Shown piece by piece: positions 282 through 64,000 of a DNA stretch of 64,000 bases (the stretch's first letter is position 1; every line of letters begins with the position of its first letter). Under the pieces are notes generated by a model that ran no database searches, was not told the origin of the DNA, and was given only the letters and a program-made list of their open reading frames with translations. A program made the position numbers and the translations under genes. The stretch covers positions 4,191 to 68,190 of the IMG/VR virus record IMGVR_UViG_3300024254_000008. One strand, 5' to 3'. Origin of the DNA: a virus. Taxonomy: Duplodnaviria; Caudoviricetes.

Positions 282-1682
282 ATGGTCAAGCTCAACATCA
301 AGCCGAAGAACCAGACCGCCCGCGCTGCCGCGTTGCGTCTCAATTCCCACGAGACGCATGGCGGCGCGCCCGCTGCGCACATCGGCGCGCTGGCGCAGCT
401 TCGACGTAGCGTCATGTCGTGCCTGCTGTGGGAGGATGAGCATTACGAATCGGGCGAGAAGATCGCCGACCGCATCGCTCGTCATGCCGCCGAGGTGACG
501 CCGTCTGAGTTGGCGGCAGTCGCCGCAGACGCACGCCATATCGCCAAGCTGCGCCATGTCCCGTTGTGGCTGCTCGTGACGCTCCTCAAGACGGCCAAGG
601 GCCAGAGGTCCCTGATCGTCGATGCGATTGACGACGTGATCCAGCGTGCCGACGAGCCGGGCGAGTTGCTCGCCATGTACTGGAAGACGAACGGCAAGGA
701 TGCGCCGTTGTCGAACCCGCTCAAGCTGGGCCTCGCCAAGGCGCTTCTCAAGTTCGATGCGTACCAGTTGGCGAAGTATGCCAAGCAGGGCGACGTCCGT
801 CTGCGCGACGTGATGTTCCTGACGCACCCGGTTCCCGATTTGACGCGAGGACCGGCGGGTCCGGAATTGTTCCGTCAACTGGCCGAGGACGAACTCTCCC
901 CGACCGACGCCGGGACGTGGGAGGCTGAGCTTTCGGCCGGTGCGGACAAGCGCGAGACGTTCGAGCGCCTGATCCGCGAGGACAAGCTCGGCTATCTTGC
1001 GCTGTTGCGAAACCTGCGAAACATGAGCGCGGCGGGATGCGATCCGGCGCTCGTCAACGCGGCCATCGTCGCGCGGCGCGGCGCGGATCGTGTCTTCCCG
1101 TTCCGTTTCATCGCGGCGGCCCGACACGCGCCGGCTTTCGCGCCGGCCTTGAACGAGTCGATGCTCCAATCGGTCGCTAACCTGCCCAAGCTGCCGGGCA
1201 CGACGGCCGTGCTGGTCGACGTGTCTGGCTCGATGAGCCGCCCACTCGGCGGAAAGTCGGACCTGATCCGGATTGATGCAGCCTGTGCGTTGGCTGTGTT
1301 GGTGCCGGCCGAGACGGTGCGGGTGCTGTCGTTCTCGTCCGGGCTGGTCGAGTGCCAGAACCTCACCCCCGGTTTGCCGGGCATCGAAGAGATCAAGCGC
1401 TCGCAGCCGCACAGCAGCACGAAACTGTTCGAGGCGGTGCAGACGACCAACGAGCGGATCGAGTACGACCGCATCATCGTCATCAGTGACGAGCAGGCGA
1501 CGTACGGCTATTCGGCCGGCATCGAGACGGACTCGTTTCCGGCCCCGAGGCCCGGAGCGAAGGCGTACATGATCAATGTCGCATCGGCGCGCAACGGCGT
1601 CGGATACGGAAACTGGACCCACATCGACGGGTTCAGCGAGAATGTCATTCGGTACATTGCCGCGTGCGAGGCCGAAGGGTGA
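282..1682 (+). CDS. rsr: Ro60/Rsr TROVE-domain RNA-binding protein with C-terminal vWA domain
   Basis: LRRSVMSCLLWEDEHYE, ALLRNLRNM, PFRFIAA, vWA MIDAS DVSGSMS; RBS GAAGGAG. Confidence 0.95.
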   Translation: MVKLNIKPKNQTARAAALRLNSHETHGGAPAAHIGALAQLRRSVMSCLLWEDEHYESGEKIADRIARHAAEVTPSELAAVAADARHIAKLRHVPLWLLVTLLKTAKGQRSLIVDAIDDVIQRADEPGELLAMYWKTNGKDAPLSNPLKLGLAKALLKFDAYQLAKYAKQGDVRLRDVMFLTHPVPDLTRGPAGPELFRQLAEDELSPTDAGTWEAELSAGADKRETFERLIREDKLGYLALLRNLRNMSAAGCDPALVNAAIVARRGADRVFPFRFIAAARHAPAFAPALNESMLQSVANLPKLPGTTAVLVDVSGSMSRPLGGKSDLIRIDAACALAVLVPAETVRVLSFSSGLVECQNLTPGLPGIEEIKRSQPHSSTKLFEAVQTTNERIEYDRIIVISDEQATYGYSAGIETDSFPAPRPGAKAYMINVASARNGVGYGNWTHIDGFSENVIRYIAACEAEG

Positions 1683-2273: not shown

Positions 2274-2351
2274 GTTGGGCGTGGTGGAATTGGTAGACAC
2301 GACTGATTGTGATTCGGTTTTCTGCGGGTTCAAGTCCCGTCGCTCACCCCA
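2274..2351 (+). tRNA. tRNA-His(GUG) with potential G-1:C73 pair
   Basis: Cloverleaf; anticodon loop TTGTGAT; T arm GCGGG-TTCAAGT-CCCGT; encoded CCA; U1.C72 mismatch. Confidence 0.88.
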
Positions 2352-2358
2352 GATTTCA

Positions 2359-2433
2359 TGCCGTGTAGCTCAATGGTAGAGCGGCACCCTGTTAAGGTGA
2401 TGGTTACAGGTTCGAGTCCTGTCTCGGCAGCCA
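2359..2433 (+). tRNA. tRNA-Asn(GUU)
   Basis: Cloverleaf; loop CTGTTAA; U1-A72, G73, encoded CCA. Confidence 0.92.
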
Positions 2434-2434
2434 C

Positions 2435-2510
2435 AGCCCGTTAGCCAAGCGGTTAAGGCATGAGATTTTGATTCTCACATTCCGAGGTTCGAATCCTCGA
2501 CGGGCTTCCA
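2435..2510 (+). tRNA. tRNA-Gln(UUG)
   Basis: AGCCCGT/ACGGGCT acceptor; loop TTTTGAT; T arm CGAGG-TTCGAAT-CCTCG; encoded CCA. Confidence 0.92.
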
Positions 2511-4646: not shown

Positions 4647-5165
4647 ATGGCCGATTCTACTCGTCTTTTTAGCGAAGAAAAAAGTTTAGCGAGTGCTAGA
4701 CGGCGACTGCTTGCAAATGTTGAGCTTGTTGATCCGCCAGCCGGTATAAAAGGGCAATGCCGGTTATGGCGAGGTTCGTGCAACGATAAGGGATACGGGC
4801 AGCTTCGCGTTCATCGAAAGACAAGACGCGCGGCTCGCGTTGCATATGAATTGTTCAAAGGGCCTATTCCCAAGAGATATGTTCTTGATCATTTATGTAG
4901 ACGTCGTCGTTGTATCAACGAGGATCATCTTGAGCCTGTAACTAATAGAGTGAATCTGCTTAGAGGCAATACGTTCGCCTCGCGCCATGCGATGAAAACA
5001 CATTGTGCCAATGGACATGCATTTTCTGTAGAAAACACGTATTTGTATTCGTGGCCCAAATGGAAAGGGCCCCGCTGTCCCGTACGCATGTGTAGACAGT
5101 GTGTTAAAAATCGAGCGTCGGCCAAGCGCAGAAAGCTCCGAGAGGAGCGGTTGATCTATGCCTGA
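4647..5165 (+). CDS. HNH homing endonuclease upstream of terL
   Basis: CRLWRG..KGYG..RVAYELFKGPIP..LDHLCRRRRCINEDHLEPVTNRVN; C-terminal KTHCANGH. Confidence 0.9.
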   Translation: MADSTRLFSEEKSLASARRRLLANVELVDPPAGIKGQCRLWRGSCNDKGYGQLRVHRKTRRAARVAYELFKGPIPKRYVLDHLCRRRRCINEDHLEPVTNRVNLLRGNTFASRHAMKTHCANGHAFSVENTYLYSWPKWKGPRCPVRMCRQCVKNRASAKRRKLREERLIYA

Positions 5166-7626
5166 CATTGTGGACACGCTTAGTCGTGCCACTGCTGCTG
5201 ACATTGCCTTTTTGGATTCTCAGCGGAAATGGCATGATCTAGCCCGACATAATCAGATATTGCCTCTTGATGGGTGGTCAACCACGCTTGCTCTTGCTGG
5301 AAGAGGATTTGGCAAGACCCGTGTCGGAGCCGAATGGTGTTTGCGACAGGCCGGGCTGTATCCCGGAATCATGATTCATGTTGTTGCACCCACATATTCC
5401 GATTTGCGTGGCGTTGTGTTTGAAGGCAATTCGGGGCTCGTCGCTGTTGTGCCAAAAGCCTGTGTCCGATCACTTACATATTCGCCTTACCCAGAAATGA
5501 TTTTGTGGAATGGTTCCATCATCCGAGGATTCTCGGCCGATACGCCGAATCGATTGCGCGGCCCGCAGGCATCGATGGTATGGGGCGACGAGTTGGCGGC
5601 GTGGTATCACGCTGAGGAGTGTCTGAACAATATCGACTTCTCGACTCGTATCGCCTACCGCCATGTCAACGGCCGGCTGATTCAGCCACAAAAGCTCTAC
5701 ACGACCACGCCGCGCCCGATGCAGCTTCTCGTCAAGATGATCGAGAAGAAATTGCCGAACGGCGATCCGGCAACCGTCTTGATCCGGGGCTCGACGCTCG
5801 ATAATCGCGCGAACCTCGCCGAGAACTTCTTTACCGATCTGCTGCAGTACGAAGGCACGCAGATCGGCCGGCAGGAAATCTATGGTGAGCTTCTCGATCT
5901 GGCCGAGTCGGCGATCATCAAGAAAAGCTGGCTCAATGTCTGGCCGAGTGACGTTCAGTTGCCGTGGTGGGAATTCATCATGGTGTCGATGGACACGGCG
6001 TTCACCGAGAAGACCTACGACCGCAAAACGTTCTCGTCCGATCCGACTGCCTGCACGACGTGGGGAGCCTTCCTGCATGAGCCTGTGAAGGGCAAGGGAG
6101 CCACGTGGAACTTGATCCTGATGGACTGTTGGGAGAAGTGGCTGGGCTTCCCGGACCTCATCACAGAGGCCCGCAAGATGATGCAGGAGACACGGTTCAA
6201 GCGCCGGACCAAGCCGATCTTCGAGCCGTTGGTTGGACCGGTGTTTGCACAGGATGAGATCAAGAAGGCCGACCTTCTGATCATCGAAGACAAGGGCTCT
6301 GGTATCTCGCTGCGGCAGATGCTTTCAAAGGAAGGGTTGGACTCGTTCCCCTACAATCCGGGTCGGGCTGACAAGCTGAGCCGTCTTCACTCGGTATCGC
6401 ACATTGCCCGGCATGGTCGCATCTGGGTGCCTGAGACGGCGGACCGGCGGACCCGGACCACCGATCTGAGCGGCAAGACGGTCATGAAGCCGACGACGTG
6501 GGCGGAGCCGCTGCTGTCGCAGCTATGCTCCTATTCCGGTCCGGGAACGACACCACATGACGACTGGGTAGATAGTTGCATCGTTAGTGCAACCATTATT
6601 CGCATGGGGGATGGTACTTCTCGCTGTGTTTCAGAAGTGCGAGCAGGGGAAATGGTAGATACGCCTATTGGTCCCCGCCGCGTGCTTCAAGCAGGAGTTA
6701 CCGGCATCAAGTCTATTTGGCGTCTTGAGTGGAATGGGGGACAATTGGAAGGAACGGGCAATCATCCGGTATGGGCAGATGATACATGGTGTAGGCTTGA
6801 CTCGTTGAGTCAAGGGTCTATCATGAGAACATGGCCTTTCCAAAAAAACCCGGCATTCGAGTCGAAACTGTCGTCTTCAATGGTTATCGATACAACAGAT
6901 ATCCTGACTCATCGAGTCCTACGCATCGGCGTTACTTTGGTCGCACTGGCCATCGTCTTCACCGCGATGTGTGGGAATATCATAAGGGGCCTATTCCAGA
7001 AGGCCATGACGTCCATCATCATGACGATGATACTAGCAACAACGATATATCCAATCTTCGTTGTCTGCCCGAGGAAAAACACATCGCGCGCCATCGGAAA
7101 GCCAATGTTGGAAGAGGGCGCCGGCCGGAACAACTTGAGCATTTGGCCCGAATTAACAGTAAAGCGGCTGCGTGGCATCGTAGTCCCGAAGGCCGTGAGT
7201 GGCATCGTCAGCACGTTACGGAGAGCCTTCGTAAAGAGGGGGCTGCAATCCCTTTTTCCAGACTCAAGAAGCACAGACGTAAATGTATCTGGTGCGATAA
7301 ATCATACTGGGCGAAGCTCGACCGCGCCAAGTTCTGTAGTTCGCGTTGTCAGAGTCAAGAATCTCGGCATCGACGCAAAGGTCTACAATCTTCGAGTTGA
7401 GGAGGCGGAGTGCTATTATGCTAATGGCATCTTGGTGCACAACTGCACGCAGGCGTGGCGGGTATTTGCCGACCGCTTCGTTGCAGACGGCGTGACCAAG
7501 CGGATTGGAGTTGACGACGCCATGATCCAAGTCATGCTGCCCGAGAACAATCCGGAATTCGAGTATAGCTACGATATCGAATCGGGCCGGGCGACGCCTC
7601 GTCATGTCGTTGCACCCTATGATTGA
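5158..7626 (+). CDS. terL: Terminase large subunit, intein-containing
   Basis: Walker A AGRGFGKT, Walker B WGDELAAW, RLRGPQ, nuclease SMDTAF and HDDWVDS/CTQA interrupted by an intein. Confidence 0.95.
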   Translation: MPDIVDTLSRATAADIAFLDSQRKWHDLARHNQILPLDGWSTTLALAGRGFGKTRVGAEWCLRQAGLYPGIMIHVVAPTYSDLRGVVFEGNSGLVAVVPKACVRSLTYSPYPEMILWNGSIIRGFSADTPNRLRGPQASMVWGDELAAWYHAEECLNNIDFSTRIAYRHVNGRLIQPQKLYTTTPRPMQLLVKMIEKKLPNGDPATVLIRGSTLDNRANLAENFFTDLLQYEGTQIGRQEIYGELLDLAESAIIKKSWLNVWPSDVQLPWWEFIMVSMDTAFTEKTYDRKTFSSDPTACTTWGAFLHEPVKGKGATWNLILMDCWEKWLGFPDLITEARKMMQETRFKRRTKPIFEPLVGPVFAQDEIKKADLLIIEDKGSGISLRQMLSKEGLDSFPYNPGRADKLSRLHSVSHIARHGRIWVPETADRRTRTTDLSGKTVMKPTTWAEPLLSQLCSYSGPGTTPHDDWVDSCIVSATIIRMGDGTSRCVSEVRAGEMVDTPIGPRRVLQAGVTGIKSIWRLEWNGGQLEGTGNHPVWADDTWCRLDSLSQGSIMRTWPFQKNPAFESKLSSSMVIDTTDILTHRVLRIGVTLVALAIVFTAMCGNIIRGLFQKAMTSIIMTMILATTIYPIFVVCPRKNTSRAIGKPMLEEGAGRNNLSIWPELTVKRLRGIVVPKAVSGIVSTLRRAFVKRGLQSLFPDSRSTDVNVSGAINHTGRSSTAPSSVVRVVRVKNLGIDAKVYNLRVEEAECYYANGILVHNCTQAWRVFADRFVADGVTKRIGVDDAMIQVMLPENNPEFEYSYDIESGRATPRHVVAPYD
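6831..7400 (+). CDS. HNH endonuclease nested in the intein in the -1 reading frame
   Basis: RLHRDVWEYHKGPIPEGHDVHHHDDDTSNNDISNLRCL...H; C-terminal CIWC...FCSSRC zinc motif. Confidence 0.9.
   Translation: MAFPKKPGIRVETVVFNGYRYNRYPDSSSPTHRRYFGRTGHRLHRDVWEYHKGPIPEGHDVHHHDDDTSNNDISNLRCLPEEKHIARHRKANVGRGRRPEQLEHLARINSKAAAWHRSPEGREWHRQHVTESLRKEGAAIPFSRLKKHRRKCIWCDKSYWAKLDRAKFCSSRCQSQESRHRRKGLQSSS
6843..6849 (+). other. Candidate -1 frameshift heptamer A_AAA_AAC
   Basis: Intein-frame codons CAA AAA AAC; a -1 shift enters the HNH frame. Confidence 0.45.
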
Positions 7627-9482: not shown

Positions 9483-9734
9483 TTGGGGTGTCCATTGCCC
9501 GACGAAAACCCGTTCCGTCAGTTCTACGAGCAAGGTGGCTACGTCGGCAACGGCGCGGCCGGCAAACGCTTGAAGATGGCGCTGTGGGGCTCGCAGTATA
9601 TGGCAGACGGCGGGAAAGTGATGCCGCCGTTCAATCTGGCCTATGGATCGCAGTATTTCAGCCGTGGTGGCGGCGTTGACGATCTGGTGAAAGCGATGAT
9701 CGAGCTTCACCGGGCTTGCGGGGGACGCGTGTGA
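9483..9734 (+). CDS. Small protein with three [FYM]xxGGxV motifs
   Basis: YEQGGYV, MADGGKV, FSRGGGV; stop overlaps the portal start. Confidence 0.6.
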   Translation: MGCPLPDENPFRQFYEQGGYVGNGAAGKRLKMALWGSQYMADGGKVMPPFNLAYGSQYFSRGGGVDDLVKAMIELHRACGGRV

Positions 9735-12340
9735 CCGACACTTCAATGGCGTATGATCCCTTCGGTCAGCCCAATCGCGGCGGTCCGTCGACCTTGACCG
9801 ACGTCCAGCCGATGGGCTCTCAGGTCATTCTCAACGATGACGGCACGGCCGAGGTTCACGGCCCCGATCACAAGCCGGGGCCGGAAGCGGCCGGACATTT
9901 CGACAATCTGGCGAATTTCATGGAGGACGCGCGGCTCAATTCGCTGTGCAGCGACATGCTGGACGCCATCGAGCAGGACAAGGAAAGCCGGGCGGAGCGC
10001 GACCGGCAATACGAGGAAGGGCTCAACCGGACCGGCATGGGGAGCAACGTCGTTGGCGGAGCGAATTTCCTCGGCGCTTCGCGGGCGGTTCATCCGATGC
10101 TGTTGGAAGCGGCCATCGATTTTGGTGGCGGCGTGATGAACGAGATGTTGCCACCGGACGGCCCGGTCAAGGCTGCGATCATCGGCGACGAGACGGATGC
10201 CAAGATGGAGCGCGCCAAGCGGGTGGCACGCTACATGAACTGGCAGCTAACCGAGCAAATGACGTCGGCGTATCACGAGTTCGAGGTTGGCTTCACGCAG
10301 TGCCCGCTGGGTGGCGCGTTTTACACCAAGGGGTATGCGGAAAATGGCATCCCGAATTCGGCCTTCATCGCCATCGACGACGTTTATCGCCCTTGGAACG
10401 ACGGAGATTTTTACAGCCAGCCCCGCATCACCCATCGCCAGAAGGTCGACCGCTGGACTTACCGAACCAACGTACGGTCCGGCATATGGCTCGATGTGGT
10501 CGACACCAGTGGCGTCGGCTCCGACGTGCCCGAGCAATCGATGGCCGAACAGGCCAATGACCGTATCATCGGTCGGTCGCTTCCTACGGAAAATATCGAC
10601 GGCATTCGCGAAGTGTACGAGACGTCATGCGTGATTCCTCTCAATGAGGATGACGACGAGCTTGAGCCCTATCTCGTCACCATCGACGTCGAGGCGCGCA
10701 AGATCGTCTCGATCTATCGAAATTGGCGGGAAAACGACCTCAAGAAGCAACGCCTGATCTTCCTGATCGAGTGGCCGTTCTGGCCGTGGCGTGGTGGCTA
10801 TCCGGTCGGCATGACTCACATGATCGGATCGCTCAGCGGCGCGACCACGGGAACGATGCGGGCGCTTCTCGATGCTGGCATGCTCAACACGACCCAGACG
10901 GGTGTGCGCCTCAAGGGCGGTTCGACGGCCGGCGGCCAGACGGTCAAGCCACAGGTCACCGAGATCACTGAGATTCAGGGCTCGCTGGCACAGGACGATA
11001 TTCGCAAGACGTTCATGCCGTTGGAGTTCAATGAGCCCAGTCCCGTGCTGTTCCAGTTGTTGGGCTTCCTTGTCGACGCAGGTCGGGGTGTCGTTCGGAC
11101 GACATTCGACGAATACGACAAGATCAACGGCCAGACACCGGTCGGTACGGCCCAGATGTTCATCGAGCAGGGGCTCAAGAACTTTGGCAGCGTCCATGCT
11201 CGACTTCACCGGTCGATGAAGCTGTTCCTGAAGTGGCTTTATGACCTGAACCGCGACACGCTGACCGACCAGACCATCGTCGACCAGTTGGGCGAATTGA
11301 CTGTCACGGCGGCTGACTTCCAAGGCCCGATGACGGTCATCCCGGTATCCGATCCGCGCATCTTCTCGGATTTGCAGCGCAAGGCGATGGCGCAGACGAT
11401 TGCCCAACGCGCCCAATTGAACCCGTTGGTCTACAACGCGCGGGCGGCAGAAGCTCACTTCCTGCGCCAGTATGGCGTGGCTGATCCCGATCAGTTTCTC
11501 GTTCCCAACCCTGTGCCCAAGCAGTTGAACGCGGTCGCCGAAAACGTGACGGCGTCGGGTTCGGGCGTGGTCAAGGCGTATCCCGGTCAGGATCACGAGG
11601 CCCATATCAAGCTGCACATGGATTATCTGCGCGACAAGCAGTTCGGCTTCAACCCGGCGATTGCGCCTGTCTTCATTCCCAAGATGATCGCCCATCTGGC
11701 CGAGCATATTGGACTTTGGTATTCTGACGCGATGCTGGAAGCGGCGACAGCGGCGTTGCGTGCTCAAACAGGCAATCCGGACATCACGCTCGATTCGTTC
11801 ATGATGGAAGGCGTTCAGGTCCCGTTGGATCGTCTCATGGCCCAGCTTGACGAGGATGTGCTGAAACACGCGCAGGAGCAGATGAAGGAGGTTCCCGATA
11901 TCATCTACGAGGCGCGTGATCTTCTGAAAGAGCTTGCGCCGCCGACTCCGATGGACCCGAGCGCTGTTGCGGCCGACGACGTCAATCGTCAGCGGATGGC
12001 CGACAAGATGCAGCATCAGGGGAAGGTCATCGAGCTTGCTGAGCGCAAGCAGGCGCGCGAGGCAGCCGATGCCTTGAAGGCGCAAGAGCAGGAAACCAAC
12101 GCTGCATTGAAGGCCCAGCAAGAGAAACGGCAGGCCGGCGAAAGTGCGGTGCGTCTGGCGCTCGATGCCAAGAAAGCGGCGCAAGGCGAGATTCAGGCCG
12201 AGCAGGATCGTCAGTCGCGCGAAGCGATCACCGATGCCAACAATGAGACGAAGCTCGAAATTGCCGAGGGCAAGGACGAGACAGCGATTGAAGTGGCCGA
12301 CATGCGGCCCGCGCCCAGTTCAGCGACAGGAGGTGAGTGA
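9731..12340 (+). CDS. Portal protein
   Basis: FLGASRAVHPMLLEAA, CPLGGAF..KGY, EFNEPSPVLFQLLG, LHRSMK; long C-terminal coiled coil; position after terL. Confidence 0.88.
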   Translation: MTDTSMAYDPFGQPNRGGPSTLTDVQPMGSQVILNDDGTAEVHGPDHKPGPEAAGHFDNLANFMEDARLNSLCSDMLDAIEQDKESRAERDRQYEEGLNRTGMGSNVVGGANFLGASRAVHPMLLEAAIDFGGGVMNEMLPPDGPVKAAIIGDETDAKMERAKRVARYMNWQLTEQMTSAYHEFEVGFTQCPLGGAFYTKGYAENGIPNSAFIAIDDVYRPWNDGDFYSQPRITHRQKVDRWTYRTNVRSGIWLDVVDTSGVGSDVPEQSMAEQANDRIIGRSLPTENIDGIREVYETSCVIPLNEDDDELEPYLVTIDVEARKIVSIYRNWRENDLKKQRLIFLIEWPFWPWRGGYPVGMTHMIGSLSGATTGTMRALLDAGMLNTTQTGVRLKGGSTAGGQTVKPQVTEITEIQGSLAQDDIRKTFMPLEFNEPSPVLFQLLGFLVDAGRGVVRTTFDEYDKINGQTPVGTAQMFIEQGLKNFGSVHARLHRSMKLFLKWLYDLNRDTLTDQTIVDQLGELTVTAADFQGPMTVIPVSDPRIFSDLQRKAMAQTIAQRAQLNPLVYNARAAEAHFLRQYGVADPDQFLVPNPVPKQLNAVAENVTASGSGVVKAYPGQDHEAHIKLHMDYLRDKQFGFNPAIAPVFIPKMIAHLAEHIGLWYSDAMLEAATAALRAQTGNPDITLDSFMMEGVQVPLDRLMAQLDEDVLKHAQEQMKEVPDIIYEARDLLKELAPPTPMDPSAVAADDVNRQRMADKMQHQGKVIELAERKQAREAADALKAQEQETNAALKAQQEKRQAGESAVRLALDAKKAAQGEIQAEQDRQSREAITDANNETKLEIAEGKDETAIEVADMRPAPSSATGGE

Positions 12341-15960: not shown

Positions 15961-16037
15961 TGGGGCCGGGGGTAGGATTTGAACCTACGATTTCGAGTTT
16001 ATGAGGCTCGCGAGGACGACCACTCCTCCACCCCGGC
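15961..16037 (-). tRNA. tRNA with CAU anticodon (Met/Ile2-like, atypical)
   Basis: Reverse complement GCCGGGG..GAGG/CCTC D stem, loop CTCATAA, GTAGG-TTCAAAT-CCTAC, C73, encoded CCA. Confidence 0.85.
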
Positions 16038-16939: not shown

Positions 16940-17851
16940 ATGCCGACGCCCATGAATTCAGCCCAGTTTCGTATCCTCGTGGAGCCGATTCTGAGCGAGC
17001 ACTTCGACGGTGTGTATGACCTCCGGAAGGAATACCGGGAGTTCATGCTGGTCAAGCCGGGCATCCAGCGCGCCTACCAGATGGAACCGGTCATGTACGG
17101 GCTGGGCACGGCCCCGCTCATGGGCGAGGGCGGTCCTGTCACCTACAAGTCGGGCGGCGTCGTCTTCAACAAGACGTACGTCTTCCAGCAATACGGCATC
17201 GCCTTCGGCCTGACCAAGGTGCTGGTCGAGGACGGCGATCACATTGCCATCGGCCGCATCTACAGTCAGCAGATGGGCCAAGGCATGGCCGAAACCGAGG
17301 AGACGGAAGCGGCCAACGTCCTGAACCGCGCCTTCAACGGCGCCTATCTGGGTGGCGACGGCCAGCCGCTTTGCTCGGCTTCGCACCCCATCATCGGCGG
17401 CAATGCTTCCAACCTGCTGGCGACGGCGGCGGCACTGTCCGAAACGAGCGTCGAGTCGATGCTGACGCAAATCCGCAAGGCCATCGACAACGACCGCAAG
17501 TACGTCCGCATCGTGCCGCGCAAGCTGCTGGTGTCGCCGGATAACGAGTGGCAGGCGGAACGCATCACCAAGTCGGCGCTGAGCCCTGGCTCGGCCAACA
17601 ACGCGATCAACGCCGTCATGTCGACCAAGGCGTTGCCGGACGGCTACGAGGTGATCACGCGCCTGACGTCGGCGACGGCATGGTTCATCAAGACCGATGA
17701 GCAGATGGGCCTGCAGTTCATCACGCGCCGCATGGCGCAGAAGAGCATGGAAGGCGACTTCGCCACCGACACCATGCGCTACAAGTGTACGTCTCGTTGG
17801 GTGACTGGCTGGACGAACTGGAGAACTGTATGGGGGACTGCGGGGGCCTGA
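16940..17851 (+). CDS. Major capsid protein (HK97 fold, Mu gpT-like)
   Basis: LVEPILSEHFDGVY, YGIAFGLTKVLVED, ANVLNRAFN, GGDGQPLCSASHP, PRKLLVSP, TMRYKCTSRW. Confidence 0.9.
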   Translation: MPTPMNSAQFRILVEPILSEHFDGVYDLRKEYREFMLVKPGIQRAYQMEPVMYGLGTAPLMGEGGPVTYKSGGVVFNKTYVFQQYGIAFGLTKVLVEDGDHIAIGRIYSQQMGQGMAETEETEAANVLNRAFNGAYLGGDGQPLCSASHPIIGGNASNLLATAAALSETSVESMLTQIRKAIDNDRKYVRIVPRKLLVSPDNEWQAERITKSALSPGSANNAINAVMSTKALPDGYEVITRLTSATAWFIKTDEQMGLQFITRRMAQKSMEGDFATDTMRYKCTSRWVTGWTNWRTVWGTAGA

Positions 17852-37321: not shown

Positions 37322-37858
37322 CTACTTCTGGCGACGCTGAAAGCCACGCCCCTGCTCAGGCCAGCTACGGCCCCATTCCAGAAGCCCGTTTTCCGGCTTC
37401 TGGAGGCTGGAGAAAGGCGGAAGCTCGCCGGGTGCCAGATAGATGGCCGCCGTGGCGTACCGAACGCCGGGATCGGTGCCGAACGTCACCGGGATGTTCG
37501 TGCGGCAGTAGTGTCGGGGATGGCCTTCCAGCCGATCGCAGTCTTCAAGACCGGCGTCGCTCACCTTGTAGAGATGGCCGATGATCTGGCCGAGATAGGC
37601 GTGATACGCTCCGGTCAGTCCGCGCGGAAGCTGCCAGACGTAAGGGAAGCCCTCGTTCAGCAGGAACTTGCCGACCGTCTTGGCAACGCCGATATCCTTG
37701 CCGGCATGCTTCTCGATCAGCAGGAACTTGCCGACCGTCTTGGCAACGCCGATATCCTTGCCGGCATGCTTCTCGATCAAGAGATGGTTGCCATGGCCCG
37801 GCTTGAGGGTGCCGTACGTGAAGAGGTAGTGCGGATGGGTGTCCAGAAGGTCGGTCAT
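37322..37858 (-). CDS. Gamma-glutamylcyclotransferase (AIG2-like) #1 with internal 20-aa duplication
   Basis: LFTYGTLKPG..NH..GHLYKV..CDRLEGHP..Y. Confidence 0.88.
   Translation of the reverse strand: MTDLLDTHPHYLFTYGTLKPGHGNHLLIEKHAGKDIGVAKTVGKFLLIEKHAGKDIGVAKTVGKFLLNEGFPYVWQLPRGLTGAYHAYLGQIIGHLYKVSDAGLEDCDRLEGHPRHYCRTNIPVTFGTDPGVRYATAAIYLAPGELPPFSSLQKPENGLLEWGRSWPEQGRGFQRRQK
37657..37779. repeat. Perfect 60-bp tandem duplication (in frame)
   Basis: LLIEKHAGKDIGVAKTVGKF encoded twice with identical DNA. Confidence 0.95.
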
Positions 37859-55758: not shown

Positions 55759-56259
55759 CTAGCCCTCCTCGCTCAAGTCGTCTGTTTCAATATCGCCAAG
55801 CTGGAACGCGCTGGCTCGCTCCAGCGTCCACTCGACGGTGCCTGATTCGTCCGGCATCACGACAGGGCAACGCCGGATTGCCTCGATAGGATGTTGCAGG
55901 AAGTATACCCATGCCATGGCCTGCTCGCCGTCATCCTCCACCATCACTTCCACACGACGATAGTAATCAGGATGGCCCTCCAATCGGTCCAACATGTTCA
56001 TCGTCTCGGGGTCGACCACGTATAGCTCGCCCTTCACCTTGCCGATAACATCGGCAACGCATGCCTCATGGTCGGCCGACAATGACGCCGGATCAATCAG
56101 GTACGGAAACGCCGCGCCGCTCAACATGAGATAGGGGTCTACTGTGACAGCTTCGCCCAAGGGCAACGCGTCACGCTCAGCTAAAAAGGGATAGTGATTG
56201 TGGAAGCCCTTTTTCAGACTACCATAGACGAACACGAGGGGATTGGTGGGGGAAGTCAT
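55759..56259 (-). CDS. Gamma-glutamylcyclotransferase (AIG2-like) #2
   Basis: VFVYGSLKKG..NH..GELYVV..LDRLEGHPDYYRR. Confidence 0.92.
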   Translation of the reverse strand: MTSPTNPLVFVYGSLKKGFHNHYPFLAERDALPLGEAVTVDPYLMLSGAAFPYLIDPASLSADHEACVADVIGKVKGELYVVDPETMNMLDRLEGHPDYYRRVEVMVEDDGEQAMAWVYFLQHPIEAIRRCPVVMPDESGTVEWTLERASAFQLGDIETDDLSEEG

Positions 56260-58297: not shown

Positions 58298-59278
58298 TCA
58301 CTCTCCCTTCGGCGCACGACGCCAGACGTTGTTCTTATCCTTGATCCAAGTCTGGCCGTTCTTTCCGGTGAACGTCGTTCCGGGCGGGTAGGGGCCGTTT
58401 GACGGTCCGGCCGGATCGCCCATGTTGAGCGCGTCGCGAATTTCATCCGGCCGCATGTCCTCGTATCGCTTTGCGCTCGCCGTCTTGTTGTGGCGCTTAC
58501 CGCTCAACATGCGGCCCGTGACCAGCGACTTGTGCGGACCCTGATAGGACGATGCCGTACCGTTGCCTTCGGGGATGAAATCGTCCCTCATGCTGGCCGT
58601 GCCGTTGCCGTTGATGCGGTCCGGAAACGTCGCTTTGTACCAGTCGTCAAAGTCAAAGCGCTTATCGCTGTATGTCGTCGTCGACCAACGCCTCACCTTT
58701 TGGTTCTTCCGGGCGAAGTCCCGCGCATGACGCAAGCGACGCGTATCCATCTGCCAGTCCGTGTAGCCCTGCAGGCAGATGCCATAGTAGCGTTCGGATG
58801 GCGCCTCCGGCTCGTTGTTCCGCTTGATGTAGGTAAAGCATCGCACTGCCTCGCCGTTCAATTCGACAGTGACCAGATAGCGTTCATAGGACCGGCCGAG
58901 TCCCTCGTACCGGTCAAGCGTCGCAATGTCGGCGGCAGTCAGACGATACACGCCAATCGGGACGGTCGCCGCGTCATCCTCAACGATGCCCAAGTGATAG
59001 GCGAACACAAGACGGGCGCTGCGCAAGGTGCCAGCCCCGACAGGATCGGCCATCGGGCAACGGCCCGCCATCTGCTCAAGGGCCAGATTCGATCCGTACG
59101 CCGCATAAGGATAGCGCGCGGCGATATGGTCAGGCGTCTTGTGCGACACGCGCACCCAGCGCAGCGGGATAGCGATAGTCACGGCGTCAGGTGTGGGAAG
59201 GGGCAAGCGTGGACCGATGAAATCGTCCGATGGTCCGCTCGTCTGTTCGTCAATCTGTGGCGTCTTTTCGTTGGCCAT
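58298..59278 (-). CDS. Gamma-glutamylcyclotransferase-like #3 with C-terminal extension
   Basis: YAAYGSNL..QMAGRCP..GVYRLT..LDRYEG..YER. Confidence 0.88.
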   Translation of the reverse strand: MANEKTPQIDEQTSGPSDDFIGPRLPLPTPDAVTIAIPLRWVRVSHKTPDHIAARYPYAAYGSNLALEQMAGRCPMADPVGAGTLRSARLVFAYHLGIVEDDAATVPIGVYRLTAADIATLDRYEGLGRSYERYLVTVELNGEAVRCFTYIKRNNEPEAPSERYYGICLQGYTDWQMDTRRLRHARDFARKNQKVRRWSTTTYSDKRFDFDDWYKATFPDRINGNGTASMRDDFIPEGNGTASSYQGPHKSLVTGRMLSGKRHNKTASAKRYEDMRPDEIRDALNMGDPAGPSNGPYPPGTTFTGKNGQTWIKDKNNVWRRAPKGE

Positions 59279-59318
59279 ATTCGGCTCCTGTTCTGGATTG
59301 ATGGGGGGAAGTGCGCGC

Positions 59319-60497
59319 CTAAGCGGCGCGCACCGCGTTCGGCTCGTCGGACGACTGGAACGTATCGCGACGGTCGTTGCACCATGCCAGCGTTTCGACA
59401 CTCAATCCGGCCGCGAAGTCATAGGCGATGAAATCGCGCGCCATGATGCGGGCCGGCTGTACGACGGGCGCGGGGGCTGGCGTTGGGATCACAACGGCTG
59501 GCATGGTGACGGTGGACGCGGCGAACACGCGCTCGCGTGCGATAGGCAACGCATGCGCGCCGGCCAGCAGATAGACCGGTCCCGCGTCGCTGCGCTGGGT
59601 AATCAAGCCAGCACCATGCCGGCGGAAACCCGTCATGATGCGGCGTAGCACGTTATCAGCAATGCCGTTGGCTTGCGCCCATTGAGCCGTGATCACGCCA
59701 TGTTGGCAGAGTTGATCCATGGCGCGGTCCGCATCACTGCCACGGCGCATCGTGGGAACGCGACCGCCGATGGTTTGGGGAACCAAGACGGGGCGGGGCG
59801 GGGCGACGGGAGGCGGAACGGGGACCGCTCCGAACGTGATGCCAACGGCACGGCGCGCCACTTCGTCGATCATCTCCTGCAGGAAGCGAACCCAGCCGAT
59901 CACCTTGCCCGGATTGCATGTCGCTGCAGCCTGCCGGAATTCGATACGCGCATCGTCGCCCTGCGCGCTGATCCACGCCACGTTCGTGGCGCTGTAGCGC
60001 CCGCTGATGGGGAAACCGTCTTGATTCCGGTCAATGTTCCCAGCCAACGATTGAAAGACTGCCGAACCGAGCGGCTGACAAAAGTTATTGTTGCGCCGGG
60101 ACGGCGGCAACATGGCGTTGATTTGGGGCTGGAGTTGAGCGTAGCGCAGGACGCTCAATTGCCGAACCCGCATCGGCAAATCCGAGACGTTCACATGCAC
60201 ATGAAAGCCACACGACCGATTGACGCCAAAGCGAGCGGTTTCCAGCGCGCCCACGGCGAGAGTGATTTCGTTATAGGATTCCTCGCGGCCGGGAAGGATG
60301 CGCGAAACCACTTCCACGCCACGGTCATACGGCTGTATCGATCCATCCGGCTTGGCCTGCCAAACCTCATACTCGCGACCGAAATGGCTGTTATTACGCA
60401 TCTCGATTCCCGTGGTGCGAACGGTGGCGTTCGCATGAGCGAGTGGTGACTGGCCGGCCGGGGCGACCATTTCAAGCTCAATGCCGAATTTACGCAT
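59319..60497 (-). CDS. Putative amidoligase (COOH-NH2 ligase, Amidoligase_2-like)
   Basis: FGIELE, DGSI, EVVSRIL, SCGFHVHV, RY...N, IEFRQ. Confidence 0.9.
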   Translation of the reverse strand: MRKFGIELEMVAPAGQSPLAHANATVRTTGIEMRNNSHFGREYEVWQAKPDGSIQPYDRGVEVVSRILPGREESYNEITLAVGALETARFGVNRSCGFHVHVNVSDLPMRVRQLSVLRYAQLQPQINAMLPPSRRNNNFCQPLGSAVFQSLAGNIDRNQDGFPISGRYSATNVAWISAQGDDARIEFRQAAATCNPGKVIGWVRFLQEMIDEVARRAVGITFGAVPVPPPVAPPRPVLVPQTIGGRVPTMRRGSDADRAMDQLCQHGVITAQWAQANGIADNVLRRIMTGFRRHGAGLITQRSDAGPVYLLAGAHALPIARERVFAASTVTMPAVVIPTPAPAPVVQPARIMARDFIAYDFAAGLSVETLAWCNDRRDTFQSSDEPNAVRAA

Positions 60498-60774
60498 GGT
60501 CAGACTCCCCTGTGGCAGTGAGAACAGAAACCAGCTTGTCTGCAACAAAGAGCCGAGTCGCTCCGTTCCCGAATCGAACTTGAATGGCTTCTACGCCGAG
60601 CGATTTCATCCGGCGCACTGCCGATATCTTGGCAACGAGCCAAAAGGCTTCTTGCGTTCCTGCGAACATGACGCGGTCATTGCATGTGAGATCGCGCGCC
60701 TTGACGTAGCGATGCGCGTACGTTGGCGATGGCTGCGCGGTGGCGTGATCTTTGGCGGGATTGGCGATGGGCAA
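60490..60774 (-). CDS. Hypothetical protein, first gene of the early block
   Basis: TTG start after AAAGGAG. Confidence 0.5.
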   Translation of the reverse strand: MPIANPAKDHATAQPSPTYAHRYVKARDLTCNDRVMFAGTQEAFWLVAKISAVRRMKSLGVEAIQVRFGNGATRLFVADKLVSVLTATGESDHA

Positions 60775-60845: not shown

Positions 60846-60887
60846 TAAATTGGCGGAAACAGACTGTGATATCTCACGAACGCGTGA
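60846..60887. promoter_or_regulatory. Composite site: 15-bp motif plus TCACG-N4-CGTGA
   Basis: TAAATTGGCGGAAAC (60846-60860); TCACGAACGCGTGA (60874-60887). Confidence 0.6.
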
Positions 60888-61182
60888 ACGGCGCATGCCG
60901 GGGATTGCGCCCGGCATGGATTATACGCAACGCGCGCCCGTGCTTTGTTCCGGCGCTGCGCTAGGGCGGTTTGGATTGGCGCAATTTTATTTCCGCTAAA
61001 ATAGAATCGTCGCTAGGGCCGGAAATCTGACCGTGGGATAGGGTCGGGCGTTTTCCGGTAGGTCCGTGCCAGACGATGACGAGTTTGCAAACGTTCTGGT
61101 TTTTATCCACCGAAAAGGGCGTCAAGTGTATAAGCGATCACAGTTGCGTTACCGCGCCGTTTTGCAGGCCAGCCGCCGGGAC

Positions 61183-61198
61183 TGTTTCACGTGAAACA
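61183..61198. promoter_or_regulatory. parS: parS site 1 (perfect chromosomal consensus)
   Basis: TGTTTCACGTGAAACA. Confidence 0.9.
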
Positions 61199-61242
61199 TC
61201 GCAGCGTGTATATTGGCGGAACACAACGTCACAGAGGATGAC

Positions 61243-61824
61243 ATGCCGGAACAGATTGACCGATTTGCCAACGATCCACGACGGCACTTGCCGAACGACC
61301 TTGAGTCGGTGCAGCGGCGACAGGCCGAGGCGATGGCGCGAGGCGAGCCGTATTACCCGACACCATGGGAATGTCAGGAGATGGGCAAGTGGTGGAACGT
61401 GCCGGAAGATGAGCAGGCCGAATTGATCGCGGCCGAGACGGCCGAGCATCCATGGCAAGAGATCATCGAGCCGAGACTGGCCGAGCGAGGATTATACCAT
61501 GGGCGACAAGACGAGACGCCTGCGCCGTGGGATGGATCACTCGCGGACAGTGCGAATTGGGGAAACATCGTCACCAATGTTCGCATTGGCGTGCTATGGC
61601 TCAAGCTGAATCCGGACAGTCTTGGGCGCGGCACGGCGAACACAAAAGCAATCAGCGCGGTTATGCGAAAGCTCGGCTGGGAGCTTAAAAGAACACGGGT
61701 TGAAGGCATGGCAAGCCGTCCAAACGTGTGGACTCATGTGGAAAGCATTGGGGACGAAATCCGGAATGTAGCAGATAATGTGCGAAATGATAGCCGCACG
61801 GATAATGATGATATTCCTTTTTAG
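61243..61824 (+). CDS. VapE C-terminal (winged-helix) fragment as a separate ORF
   Basis: KWWNVPEDEQ..HPWQEII..AISAVMRKLGWELKRTR..W; ends DDIPF; RBS GAGG. Confidence 0.7.
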   Translation: MPEQIDRFANDPRRHLPNDLESVQRRQAEAMARGEPYYPTPWECQEMGKWWNVPEDEQAELIAAETAEHPWQEIIEPRLAERGLYHGRQDETPAPWDGSLADSANWGNIVTNVRIGVLWLKLNPDSLGRGTANTKAISAVMRKLGWELKRTRVEGMASRPNVWTHVESIGDEIRNVADNVRNDSRTDNDDIPF

Positions 61825-61859
61825 GACGCTGAAATGACTCAATTCGGACATAATTGAGA

Positions 61860-62138
61860 AGGGACAGAATCATTGGGGACGGGATATAGGGACAAATTGG
61901 TGCCCGGTTTATATGGCTGTTCACTCTGTCCACAATGGTCCTAATGAATCTCCAACCTTAGACGCTATGCCACTACCAGCACCGTAATGTATATCCCCTT
62001 AACATGTAGGGATATGTGTGAGTGTGATTCACATGTATATACTGGAGCGACGATTCATTAGGGACATTATGGTCCATTAGGGACATGCAAGCGGGCGTGC
62101 GTTTTACGTGTCCATAATGGCTTGAAGGAGAAGGGACA
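61860..62138. other. Candidate replication origin
   Basis: AT-richer non-coding region; repeated AGGGACA; inverted repeat ATGGTCCTAATGAATC (61935-61950) / GATTCATTAGGGACAT (62052-62067); internal palindromes. Confidence 0.55.
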
Positions 62139-62140
62139 GG

Positions 62141-62776
62141 ATGCCAGCCGTTTATCCACCCATTGCACCGCGCGGACCGTCGAGCGATAGCCCCGCGAAC
62201 GGGGCGCCGTCGCCGAGCGACTCTTTCAACCCGCGCGTGCCGACTGTCTCACGTGAAACATCGGACGACGCTGGACAGGGCCAGCGCCTTGCCGCGCTCG
62301 AACGCGATCCGTCGACGTTCGTTGACGCGCATCATCCGATCCGCGATGCCGTTGCCATCGCCCTACTCAAGCCGGCGGGCGAATTGATCAAGCGTCATGC
62401 CGCGCGCCAACGGATGATGAAAGAGGCAATCAAGGGGCCGCTGGATAGCGATGATCCAACGGAGCGGCCAATGACACTGGCCAATGACGACGGGCTGCCA
62501 GCCATTCTCGCCATGGCCGAGACACAGGTAGCAATGGCGTTGCTCGGCGATGCCAAGGCATTCAATGCCGTCGCTGATCGCGTCGAAGGCAAGGCGGGCC
62601 TACGCAAGGCTGATCTTGATGCCGAGACGGAAGCACAGCGCCAGCGCGTGCGTGGTACGATTGAAGAGCTTGTCCGTGAGATGGGTGAGCGGCGCAATGC
62701 GCAACGGCGCGCCATCGATGCCGACGTTGTGGACGTCGATGTTGTTTCACGTGAAACACTCGGCCGTGAAACGTGA
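62141..62776 (+). CDS. Terminase small subunit-like protein
   Basis: AETQVAMALLGDAKAFNAVADRVEGK helix pair; RBS AAGGAG. Confidence 0.6.
   Translation: MPAVYPPIAPRGPSSDSPANGAPSPSDSFNPRVPTVSRETSDDAGQGQRLAALERDPSTFVDAHHPIRDAVAIALLKPAGELIKRHAARQRMMKEAIKGPLDSDDPTERPMTLANDDGLPAILAMAETQVAMALLGDAKAFNAVADRVEGKAGLRKADLDAETEAQRQRVRGTIEELVREMGERRNAQRRAIDADVVDVDVVSRETLGRET
62245..62260. promoter_or_regulatory. parS: parS site 2 (one mismatch), inside the terS-like gene
   Basis: TGTCTCACGTGAAACA (encodes VSRET). Confidence 0.8.
62743..62758. promoter_or_regulatory. parS: parS site 3 (perfect), inside the terS-like gene
   Basis: TGTTTCACGTGAAACA (encodes VSRET). Confidence 0.9.
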
Positions 62777-63520
62777 CGCCTTGCGCGGCATACCAGTAAT
62801 GGTATGGGTTATGTGACGGTGCGGTATCCCGATACTAACTCATTGTTAAATCACGTTAATATAATTTCCATAATGACGGTTATACGATGATGCGTGCGCG
62901 TGCATGTTGACGCTGTCCACATCGCGCCTTGTCACTGCCTAGATGAGCCTATCCTGCCAGTGTCTAGATGAGCATGGGGGTAGAGCCTTTTGGCGGAATT
63001 TTTTTGTGGGTCCCATATTGGGTCCCCCGCACCTGCGGGCTTGCACCCTGTGTAGACTCGCCGGTCATCTATCCTTGATCTGCTCCAGCGAATCGCTTAG
63101 GGTCCCCTCTATGGCGGCGGCACGGGAGCGAACGTGCGCTTAATGTGATGGTCGAGAGGGTTACTATCGGAGTCCTTGTCCGTTCGTGTGGGTGTTGCCT
63201 GAAACTTGTCCTGCCCCCGCATGCACGACGGAACAGCCCGGCACACTGTCTCGGTTACAGGCAAGGGAAGGTTGGGCGGCGATCACGGCCGAAGGCCCAC
63301 AGTGCCGGGGTAGCGTCCGGTCCGCCATTGATATTGATCTGCGAATTGTTTAGGGTCCCCTTTGGCGGATGGGTATGCACCCAAGCAGACAACAGCCGAG
63401 ATCGTCAAGAGCGGGTAGCCGGGTTTCCTTCACGTGCTGCGGTCCGCGACGCCCAAGGAGGAAATGGCGCACCTCTCCGCCGCACTTGCTATTCTGTCGG
63501 AATCGACGTAGCTTTCCGGC
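62777..63520. other. Long non-coding region, candidate pac / genome-end region
   Basis: No credible ORF; repeated GGGTCCC; T-tract; directly after the terS-like gene. Confidence 0.4.
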
Positions 63521-63721
63521 ATGCCCAACATCTCCAACAAGTACACCGTCGATGTCGACCTGACGCGAAACGACGACGATCTGTGCGACGGCCTGCCGTG
63601 GGACGTCCTCGTGAGGTTTGCCCATATCAAGTGGCTGCTGCAGTACGAGCGGCGCGTCAAAAAGCTGGAAGAGCTCAACGCCTTGATCGCGCGGACGGGG
63701 CTCATCAAGCCGTTTCACTGA
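63521..63721 (+). CDS. Hypothetical protein
   Basis: ATG; coupled to the next ORF by TGATG. Confidence 0.55.
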   Translation: MPNISNKYTVDVDLTRNDDDLCDGLPWDVLVRFAHIKWLLQYERRVKKLEELNALIARTGLIKPFH

Positions 63722-64000
63722 TGACCCGCCACGGCATCGTCATCCCGATCCCCGACCTGACACCGCCGCTGGATTGCCGGGGCGGTCCGGCGTTCTGCGC
63801 TGTGTGCAACGCCGAGATGATCGAGATCGAGGAACTGGCGCTCGGGCTGTCAGCCGGTCATGAACGGCGCATGGCGCATCAGTGCGGTGAGAGCCGGTTT
63901 GTCAGTGCCGACGACTTGAATGCGATCTGGCTGCGCCGGACCTATCAGCGGGCGCAGTTCCGGACCGATGCGATCCGCATGATCAAGCTGCGGGCCAATG
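63721..64000 (+). CDS. Hypothetical Zn-binding protein, truncated by the window end
   Basis: MTRHGIV..CAVCN..HQCG..; open to position 64000. Confidence 0.5.
   Translation, partial: MTRHGIVIPIPDLTPPLDCRGGPAFCAVCNAEMIEIEELALGLSAGHERRMAHQCGESRFVSADDLNAIWLRRTYQRAQFRTDAIRMIKLRAN

What the first reader, a model, noticed from the sequence alone, without database searches (positions are those of the whole stretch)
61183..62758. Three chromosomal-type parS sites flanking the putative origin in a phage with no ParA/ParB: hijack of host segregation
Two perfect 16-bp TGTTTCACGTGAAACA palindromes and one single-mismatch copy cluster within 1.6 kb; two are embedded in the terS-like coding sequence (both encode VSRET), and I saw none elsewhere in the window. 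Chance occurrence is negligible. Known: this is the conserved bacterial parS bound by chromosomal ParB, which loads SMC and engages ParA or polar anchors. Inference: the phage persists as a non-integrated replicon segregated by host ParABS, positions its DNA at the pole, or titrates ParB to block host segregation. ParB spreading could also silence terS and packaging until the lytic switch.
Basis: partly seen in the sequence, partly recalled or inferred. Interest (0 to 1): 0.86.

Follow-up and report, generated by a model that had tools for sequence, protein, structure and literature searches.

The report
Host-type parS cluster on ParB-less phage
A complete 68-kb soil phage with no partition or lysogeny genes carries three copies of the bacterial chromosome's centromere site (parS). 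It most likely borrows the host's ParB protein, as Bacillus phage phi29 is known to do, so this is a real feature but not a new kind.

Summary
There are two perfect parS sites and one one-mismatch site at 61183, 62245 and 62743, and no other in the 68,190-bp record (0.02 expected by chance). The assembly closes on itself, and it has no ParB_N, HTH_ParB, ParA-type ATPase or tyrosine integrase.

Selection acts on the DNA, not on the peptide:
- Both coding sites spell VSRET with rare codons (chance about 1e-4 each).
- They lie in a 5-codon insertion and in the tail of a 211-aa gene.
- Only the nearest homologue (85% identical) also has VSRET at both places.
- Another close relative has an exact site in its portal tail.

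More distant relatives have the gene but no parS, so the cluster is a recent gain in this lineage.

Exact parS occurs in at least 119 IMG/VR stretches, against 2 for a same-composition control palindrome. Of 14 near-complete records checked, 13 lack ParB.

The best reading is a docking cluster for host ParB, as on phi29 (five parS sites read by host Spo0J). What the phage gains is unknown: keeping or placing its DNA, soaking up ParB, or silencing.

"terS-like" gets support from gene order only. "Origin" is untested. The host is unknown, perhaps an alphaproteobacterium.

This scan has already reported orphan host-type parS on several other phages. I class it as a new member of a known kind.

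The parts
61183..61198 (.). parS-1, a perfect 16-bp consensus palindrome. It is non-coding, about 45 bp upstream of the likely ATG (61244) of ORF203 and about 180 bp downstream of a rightward promoter-like motif at 60989.
   Evidence: a 22-nt unit including the flanks GAC...TCG is shared with parS-2
62245..62260 (.). parS-2, with one mismatch (T4>C). It lies inside ORF211, is read as VSRET, and sits in a 5-codon insertion relative to homologues, in a low-confidence (disordered) N-terminal linker.
62743..62758 (.). parS-3, perfect. It lies inside the variable C-terminal tail of ORF211 and is read as VSRET. Its flank GCCGAG matches the GCCGAC flank of parS-2 in inverted orientation.
62766..62772 (-). 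An extra parS half-site (GTTTCAC) 8 bp beyond the end of parS-3. Seven of the eight half-sites in the window lie in 61184-63718.
62141..62776 (+). ORF211, an all-helical protein of an uncharacterised phage family with 39 metagenomic homologues. It is a candidate small-terminase-like or packaging-operon protein. In relatives G060 and G061 the gene lies about 1.5 kb upstream of TerL on the same strand. The DUF5681 similarity is weak.
   Evidence: no significant fold or family match
61213..61824 (+). ORF203, of unknown function, with no family match. It is the first rightward gene after the strand switch and lies directly downstream of parS-1.
61856..62142 (+). An iteron-like array in the 316-bp intergenic gap between ORF203 and ORF211. 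It holds five co-oriented AGGGACA copies (5 of the 8 in the window) and a 21-nt inverted repeat (61930-61950 / 62052-62072). It is a candidate regulatory or origin element; this is untested.
60846..61003 (.). Strand-switch region with two divergent copies of the phage's repeated promoter-like motif TTTCCGCYAAWWTAR. The cumulative GC skew has its minimum near here.

Best explanation
The three sites are working loading sites for the host's chromosomal ParB, gained recently by an otherwise lytic-type phage.

Inferred mechanism: after the phage DNA enters and circularises, host ParB dimers bind the three sites, take up CTP and slide outwards as clamps. This builds a partition complex over the strand-switch region, the iteron-like array and the candidate terS gene. 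The phage DNA would then behave like a host origin region: it could engage ParA, SMC and pole-anchoring partners. The phage genome would so be kept, placed and passed on with the host chromosome when infection stalls in starved, dormant or differentiating cells, as phi29 does through Spo0J.

Shown here: the sites, their non-random nature, selection at the DNA level, the lack of any phage ParAB, and the recurrence in other ParB-less phages.
Inferred: ParB binding itself, and what follows from it.
For: 1. Three sites lie within 1.6 kb against 0.02 expected, with no degenerate intermediates.
2. The match is to the 16-bp chromosomal consensus that the literature uses to find parS (PMC10197239, citing Livny 2007).
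3. The genome is complete: a 120-bp terminal overlap closes the assembly. It has no ParB_N, HTH_ParB, AAA_31 or CbiA and no tyrosine integrase. Five PHROG batches found no lysogeny gene.
4. The constraint is on the DNA. Under this phage's codon usage VSRET would be spelled as parS with probability 1.3e-4. Both coding sites lie in indel-rich, low-pLDDT segments. Only the nearest homologue P0002 (85% identical) also has VSRET at both places, although the residues around them differ.
5. The sites turn over within the lineage. Relative G052 (MCP 88% identical) has an exact site in the variable tail of its portal gene, where this phage has 7 mismatches.
6. In IMG/VR, at least 119 stretches hold exact parS against 2 for the same-composition control palindrome. 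Thirty-one of the 119 have 2 or more sites. Only 2 of 50 records have ParB_N, and 13 of the 14 records that are at least 90% complete lack it.
7. phi29 has five parS sites read by host Spo0J for trapping its genome in spores (PMC2731898).
Against: - No binding data exist and the host is unknown, so whether the host has ParABS is assumed, not shown.
- The cluster is absent from relatives G060 and G061, which carry the same gene, from L008-L010 and from Caulobacter phage RW. It is therefore dispensable for the wider lineage.
- A lytic-type phage has no obvious need for partition, and phi29's benefit depends on sporulation, which cannot be assumed here.
- The shared flanks show that the sites were copied from one another, so they are not three independent gains.
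Confidence: 0.55

Rival explanations
1. ParB sponge or decoy. Replicating phage DNA, at hundreds of copies with three sites each, soaks up host ParB. This would dissolve the host partition complex and, in Alphaproteobacteria, displace the ParB-bound division inhibitor MipZ. Chromosome segregation and cell division would stop, to the phage's benefit. Host ParB binds as in the best explanation, but the gain is host takeover rather than phage inheritance.
For: The phage looks strictly lytic, so titration fits its lifestyle better than partition does. Its structural module is collinear with Caulobacter phage RW (MCP 52%, portal 40%, TerL 42%). Portal relatives infect Roseobacter and Pelagibacter, which hints at an alphaproteobacterial host. 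In such hosts ParB is tied to division control through MipZ, and extra parS copies are known to disturb division; both points are from my own knowledge and were not tested here.
Against: The host is unproven. RW itself has no parS. A sponge would be expected to favour many dispersed sites, whereas here there are only three, clustered like a centromere. There is no expression or copy-number information.
Confidence: 0.2
2. A true plasmid-type prophage. The phage lysogenises as a free replicon that relies wholly on host ParABS for stable inheritance. The iteron-like array would serve as its plasmid origin.
For: The layout resembles a plasmid ori/par region: three long intergenic gaps, five co-oriented AGGGACA repeats between parS-1 and parS-2, and a centromere-like cluster. 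The assembly is circular.
Against: No repressor, integrase, Rep-like initiator or partition ATPase was detected. The gene set is lytic-type: family-A DNA polymerase, primase-helicase, clamp-like factor, HNH nucleases and base- or peptide-modifying enzymes. No relative of ORF211 was found in 185,579 species genomes, so nothing indicates carriage in sequenced isolates. A circular assembly is equally expected from terminal redundancy.
Confidence: 0.1
3. The palindromes are read by a phage protein rather than by host ParB. For example, they could be pac or recognition sites of the candidate small terminase ORF211, whose gene holds two of them, or operators of a phage regulator.
For: pac sites of headful-packaging phages often lie inside terS (my own knowledge). 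In relatives ORF211 sits in the terminase operon. In IMG/VR loci with TerL homologues of this phage, parS lies upstream of TerL in about 15 of 18. HTVC027P has a one-mismatch site about 630 bp from its annotated terS.
Against: A 16-of-16 match to the bacterial consensus, repeated in many unrelated phages, is not explained by a phage-specific reader. Homologues of ORF211 with a well-conserved helical core have no parS-like site with up to 2-3 mismatches in or near their genes, so the protein family does not need this motif. No phage ORF has a ParB-type HTH. The annotated TerS proteins of RW and HTVC027P are unrelated to ORF211.
Confidence: 0.08
4. The sites have no function. A short palindromic unit was copied three times by recombination or repair and is drifting, or it was picked up from host DNA.
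For: The shared flanks indicate copying. The sites lie only in permissive DNA: a leader, a disordered linker and a C-terminal tail. They are absent from most relatives.
Against: The nearest homologue keeps VSRET at both positions while the flanks differ. G052 gained a site independently. Phage contigs at large show at least 60-fold excess over the control palindrome. The flanks are phage coding sequence, not host DNA.
Confidence: 0.07

Closest known systems
Host-type parS sites of Bacillus phage phi29, read by host Spo0J (ParB) for trapping the phage genome in spores (Meijer et al. 2005, as summarised in PMC2731898)
   Same: A virulent-type phage without its own ParA or ParB carries several copies (five there, three here) of the host chromosome's parS. 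The phage exploits part of the host segregation machinery.
   Different: phi29 is a 19-kb protein-primed phage of a sporulating Firmicute, and it also carries Spo0A boxes that shut down its lytic cycle. This phage is a 68-kb circularly assembled soil phage whose structural genes resemble those of Caulobacter phages. Its host is unknown, and no sporulation link or matching repression sites have been found. Two of its sites are written into a coding sequence.
Chromosomal ParABS centromeres (ParB-CTP sliding clamps nucleated at origin-proximal parS clusters)
   Same: The same 16-bp consensus, and several sites clustered within a few kb beside a strand or skew switch.
   Different: The replicon encodes neither ParB nor ParA. 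The sites sit on a virus. Two of them are recent insertions in a protein-coding gene.
Plasmid-prophage partition modules (P1/P7/N15 and the parABS of mycobacteriophages, PMC7157519)
   Same: Centromere-like repeats on a phage genome that could serve extrachromosomal inheritance.
   Different: Those phages encode their own ParA and ParB and use private parS sequences that avoid cross-talk with the chromosome. This phage encodes neither and copies the chromosomal site exactly.
Host cell-cycle regulator sites on alphaproteobacterial phages (CtrA boxes, 'lytic deferment', PMC9437464)
   Same: A lytic phage carries binding sites for a host chromosome or cell-cycle protein so as to time or defer its development.
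   Different: The host factor differs (CtrA, a transcription factor, versus ParB, a partition clamp). I did not examine CtrA boxes here.

Membership tests
Chromosomal-type parS (ParB/Spo0J nucleation site) | 16-bp palindrome matching TGTTTCACGTGAAACA with 0-2 mismatches | tested here: met
   Two sites match 16/16 and one matches 15/16
Chromosomal-type parS (ParB/Spo0J nucleation site) | Several sites clustered within a few kb, far above chance | tested here: met
   Three sites in 1,576 bp; 0.02 expected; 0 of 100 shuffles reach 3
Chromosomal-type parS (ParB/Spo0J nucleation site) | Specific binding and CTP-dependent loading of ParB | not testable with these tools
   Needs EMSA, BLI or ChIP with host ParB; the host is unknown
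Self-contained ParABS partition module (chromosome, plasmid or plasmid-prophage) | Cognate ParB and ParA encoded on the same replicon | tested here: not met
   PF02195, PF17762, PF13614 and PF01656 are all absent at E<=1 from the closed 68-kb genome, with controls positive
phi29-type exploitation of host ParB by a virulent phage | Lytic-type phage without lysogeny or partition genes that carries several host-consensus parS sites | tested here: met
   No integrase, no ParAB, own replication machinery, three sites
phi29-type exploitation of host ParB by a virulent phage | Host ParB-dependent segregation or entrapment of the phage genome | not testable with these tools
   Needs the phage-host pair
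phi29-type exploitation of host ParB by a virulent phage | Sporulating host and matching repressor (Spo0A) sites | not tested
   Host unknown. Structural genes point towards Alphaproteobacteria, which would argue against this feature
pac site inside a small-terminase gene | The gene that holds the sites is a small terminase | tested here: inconclusive
   No significant Pfam, PHROG, PDB or BFVD match. Sub-threshold DUF5681 signal in 25 of 35 members. Gene order upstream of TerL in G060 and G061
pac site inside a small-terminase gene | The recognition motif goes together with the protein family | tested here: not met
   Homologous genes in L008-L010, G060 and G061 have no parS-like site with up to 2-3 mismatches

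The most novel reading that the evidence does not exclude
The cluster is a centromere decoy. As the phage replicates, its parS copies strip ParB, and with it the division regulator MipZ, from the chromosome of an alphaproteobacterial host. This freezes segregation and division. More broadly, copying the host centromere would be a widespread and so far unrecognised host-takeover or persistence device of ParB-less phages, given the at least 60-fold excess of exact parS over a control palindrome in IMG/VR.
Probability: 0.15. Interest if true: 0.8.

Novelty: new member of a known kind. Interest (0 to 1): 0.55.

Why it matters
Mobile elements normally use private centromeres so as not to clash with the chromosome. 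A phage that copies the chromosomal site exactly is plugging into, or sabotaging, a core host process.

phi29 has been the only studied case, and its benefit is tied to sporulation. This phage, and the many ParB-less phage contigs that also carry exact parS, suggest the trick is much more common and also occurs where sporulation is unlikely.

That makes several questions testable: how 'lytic' phages persist in slow-growing soil bacteria, whether ParB can be titrated as a takeover strategy, and whether ParB spreading silences phage genes.

For annotation, it also shows that a parS hit is not a safe marker of a chromosomal origin or a plasmid in metagenomic contigs.

Tried and rejected
The DNA of the nearest homologue P0002 could therefore not be fetched, and its two sites are inferred from the peptide only.
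- Single-protein scans of IMG/VR with ORF211, ORF203 and the primase-helicase found nothing. The amidoligase gave only distant, unrelated loci. The A1 profile found nothing in viral or genome contigs.
- blastn and tblastn of the region and of ORF211 against cultured phages gave no match.
- Fold searches of the ORF211 model against PDB and BFVD gave nothing below E = 0.3. The profile against PDB sequences gave nothing.
- Host identification failed. The DNA polymerase is only about 35% identical to that of Pseudomonas and Bordetella phages. The methyltransferase scan of 185,579 genomes returned a scatter of hits at 45% identity or less across many phyla.
- Sequencing runs: one soil run is probably the source. 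A second soil study holds 151-nt pieces identical to the window, including parS-1, but too little to show variants at the sites.
- The sigma-70-like hit that overlaps parS-1 is no better than chance, with 1 found against 2.5 expected.
- The literature searches found no paper on orphan chromosomal parS in phages other than the phi29 work. Meijer 2005 (PMC1276709) is not held.
- I considered that RNA hairpins or restriction sites (CACGTG) might explain the palindromes. I dropped both because neither explains a 16-of-16 match to parS.

Full report
OBSERVATION
The pattern search finds exactly three matches with up to 2 mismatches in the window. Perfect copies lie at 61183-61198 and 62743-62758, and a one-mismatch copy (TGTCTCACGTGAAACA) lies at 62245-62260. 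Shuffles give 0.02 expected, and none of 100 reaches three. The window is bases 4191-68190 of a 68,190-bp IMG/VR virus record. The whole record holds only these three sites with up to 1 mismatch, and the 4.4 kb outside the window has none with up to 3 mismatches. There are no degenerate intermediates: the window has 2, 1, 0, 0 and 1 sites at 0 to 4 mismatches. Record bases 23-142 repeat at 68071-68190, so the assembly closes into a genome of about 68,048 bp. 'Not in the window' therefore means 'not in the phage'.

WHAT THE PHAGE IS
- TerL lies at 5158-7626, the portal at 9716-12340, the MCP at 16940-17851, and further virion genes run to about 37.3 kb, all on the + strand.
- The - strand carries a helicase, a family-A DNA polymerase, a clamp-like factor, an RNA ligase and a primase-helicase (39.7-54.8 kb). 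Beyond them lie gamma-glutamyl cyclotransferase-like genes, an HNH nuclease, a DUF6011 protein and an amidoligase, up to 60.5 kb.
- ParB_N, HTH_ParB, AAA_31, CbiA and Phage_integrase are all absent at E<=1, with positive controls. No PHROG batch returned a lysogeny gene.
- The structural module is collinear with Caulobacter phage RW (MCP 52%, portal 40%, TerL 42%). The next-nearest portals belong to Roseobacter and Pelagibacter phages. This hints at an alphaproteobacterial host but does not show it. Other host tests failed.
- The source is a soil metagenome. A second soil study holds identical 151-nt pieces.

LOCAL ANATOMY
The cluster lies where transcription switches from leftward to rightward and where cumulative GC skew is lowest.
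- parS-1 is non-coding, in the leader of ORF203 (61213/61244-61824, no family match).
- A 316-bp gap follows. It holds five co-oriented AGGGACA copies, 5 of the 8 in the window, and a 21-nt inverted repeat.
- ORF211 (62141-62776) then carries parS-2 and parS-3. An extra half-site lies 8 bp beyond the end of parS-3; seven of the eight GTTTCAC half-sites in the window lie in 61184-63718.
- The sites share flanks. parS-1 and parS-2 match at 21 of 22 positions, and parS-2 and inverted parS-3 match at 20 of 22. They were therefore copied from one another.

IS THE DNA OR THE PEPTIDE SELECTED?
ORF211 has 39 metagenomic homologues at 40-85% identity. In the alignment, parS-2 is a five-residue insertion (VSRET) in a variable N-terminal linker, and parS-3 lies in the variable C-terminal tail. 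The AlphaFold model is all-helical (mean pLDDT 78), but confidence is only about 50-55 at both places. Only the nearest homologue P0002 (85% identical) also has VSRET at both positions, although the neighbouring residues and indels differ. All five codons end in A or T in a genome that prefers G or C at third positions. Under this phage's codon usage the peptide would be spelled as parS with probability 1.3e-4. The nucleotide motif is what is kept.

RELATIVES
- G060 and G061 (MCP 73%) carry the ORF211 family gene but no parS with up to 2 mismatches anywhere in 22 and 37 kb.
- The metagenome loci L008-L010 (48-67% identical) have none with up to 3 mismatches.
- Phage RW has none.
- G052 (MCP 88%) has an exact parS in the variable C-terminal tail of its portal gene, again read as VSRET. 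This phage reads QSREA at the homologous spot, with 7 mismatches.

The lineage thus gains sites at permissive places and loses them again. The cluster seen here is recent.

IS ORF211 A SMALL TERMINASE?
No Pfam, PHROG, PDB or BFVD match is significant. The annotated TerS proteins of RW and HTVC027P are unrelated to it. Twenty-five of 35 family members give a sub-threshold DUF5681 hit (best E = 0.005), and the Atlas search gave the same weak lead. In G060 and G061 the gene lies about 1.5 kb upstream of TerL on the same strand. In this phage about 10.6 kb of extra genes (Ro60-like, tRNAs, methyltransferase, HNH) lies in between. 'terS-like' is therefore plausible by position and unproven by sequence.

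HOW GENERAL IS THIS?
The same letters read backwards, a palindrome of equal composition, occur in 2.
- Thirty-one of the 119 loci have two or more sites with up to 1 mismatch.
- Of 50 records checked, 2 have ParB_N. Of the 14 that are at least 90% complete, 13 lack it. Several are 15-18-kb records with inverted terminal repeats.
- About 30 of the loci hold TerL, portal or MCP homologues of this phage. In about 15 of the 18 with a TerL hit, parS lies upstream of TerL. It is often an exact island in flanks that cannot otherwise be aligned.
- L072, L033 and L084 have 5, 5 and 3 exact sites there.
- Pelagibacter phage HTVC027P has a one-mismatch site near its annotated terS.
- Earlier notes of this scan report the same thing on other phages. 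I treat those notes as leads only.

INTERPRETATION
phi29 is the published precedent: five parS sites, host Spo0J, and trapping of the phage genome in spores (PMC2731898). I cannot settle what this phage gains. The options are retention or placement of stalled genomes, titration of ParB (attractive if the host is an alphaproteobacterium, where ParB also positions MipZ; this is from my own knowledge), or silencing by spreading. A phage-encoded reader or pac site is unlikely, because homologues of ORF211 lack the motif. Neutral drift is unlikely given the conservation, the independent gain in G052 and the global excess.

VERDICT
The feature is real and non-random, and it is best read as a docking cluster for host ParB. 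It is a new member of the phi29 kind. The wider pattern across phages is more interesting than this single case.

Noticed in passing
record bases 1-142 and 68071-68190 (window 63881-64000): The record's ends overlap by 120 bp, and its first 22 bases are the reverse complement of record bases about 63-84, which looks like an assembly fold-back. IMG/VR calls the record 'linear', but the genome closes into about 68,048 bp.
   Followed up: yes
G052 (IMGVR_UViG_3300018481_000105) 10707-10722; homologous to window about 12211: A close relative (MCP 88% identical) has an exact parS written as VSRET in the variable C-terminal tail of its portal gene. This phage reads QSREA there, with 7 mismatches.
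   Followed up: yes
IMG/VR loci L072 (10535-11462), L033 (2657-3444), L084 (240-961): Distant relatives by TerL, portal and MCP carry 5, 5 and 3 exact parS sites within less than 1 kb, mostly non-coding and just upstream of the terminase gene. Across such loci parS lies upstream of TerL in about 15 of 18.
   Followed up: partly
IMG/VR records G012, G014, G040, G043 (15-16 kb, inverted terminal repeats): Small ITR-bearing records of phi29-like size, rated 100% complete and without ParB_N, hold exact parS; G012 and G014 have three sites each. I did not check their gene content.
   Followed up: no
window 61856-62142: Five co-oriented AGGGACA repeats (5 of 8 in the window) and a 21-nt inverted repeat fill the gap between ORF203 and ORF211. 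The array is iteron-like and its function is unknown.
   Followed up: partly
window 1875, 16053, 38314, 42875, 50886, 51685, 56306, 58092, 60846, 60989: A motif of about 15 bp, TTTCCGCYAAWWTAR, recurs at ten intergenic places or gene ends. It looks like a phage-specific promoter element. Two divergent copies flank the strand switch next to parS-1.
   Followed up: partly
window 2275-2510 and 15961-16037: There is a tRNA cluster (His, Asn, Gln) and a tRNA-Met. ARAGORN's tRNA-Asp call at 11573-11668, inside the portal gene on the opposite strand, is probably false.
   Followed up: no
window 282-1682 and 1664-1885: A Ro60/TROVE plus vWA protein is followed by a 73-aa ORF that matches a PHROG described as RF-1-domain peptide chain release factor.
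   Followed up: no
window 37322-37858, 55759-56259, 58298-59401, 59319-60548: Three gamma-glutamyl cyclotransferase-like genes and an amidoligase are present. This may be a peptide- or base-modification set.
   Followed up: no
window 5158-7626: TerL is 822 aa, and its PHROG matches are broken into pieces. In Caulobacter phage RW the homologous TerL is annotated in two parts around a methyltransferase gene. This suggests insertions in TerL in this lineage.
   Followed up: no
run X2, record 5 (154-nt contig): A second soil metagenome holds a short contig with two parS sites about 80 nt apart and unrelated sequence between them. It probably comes from another replicon.
   Followed up: no
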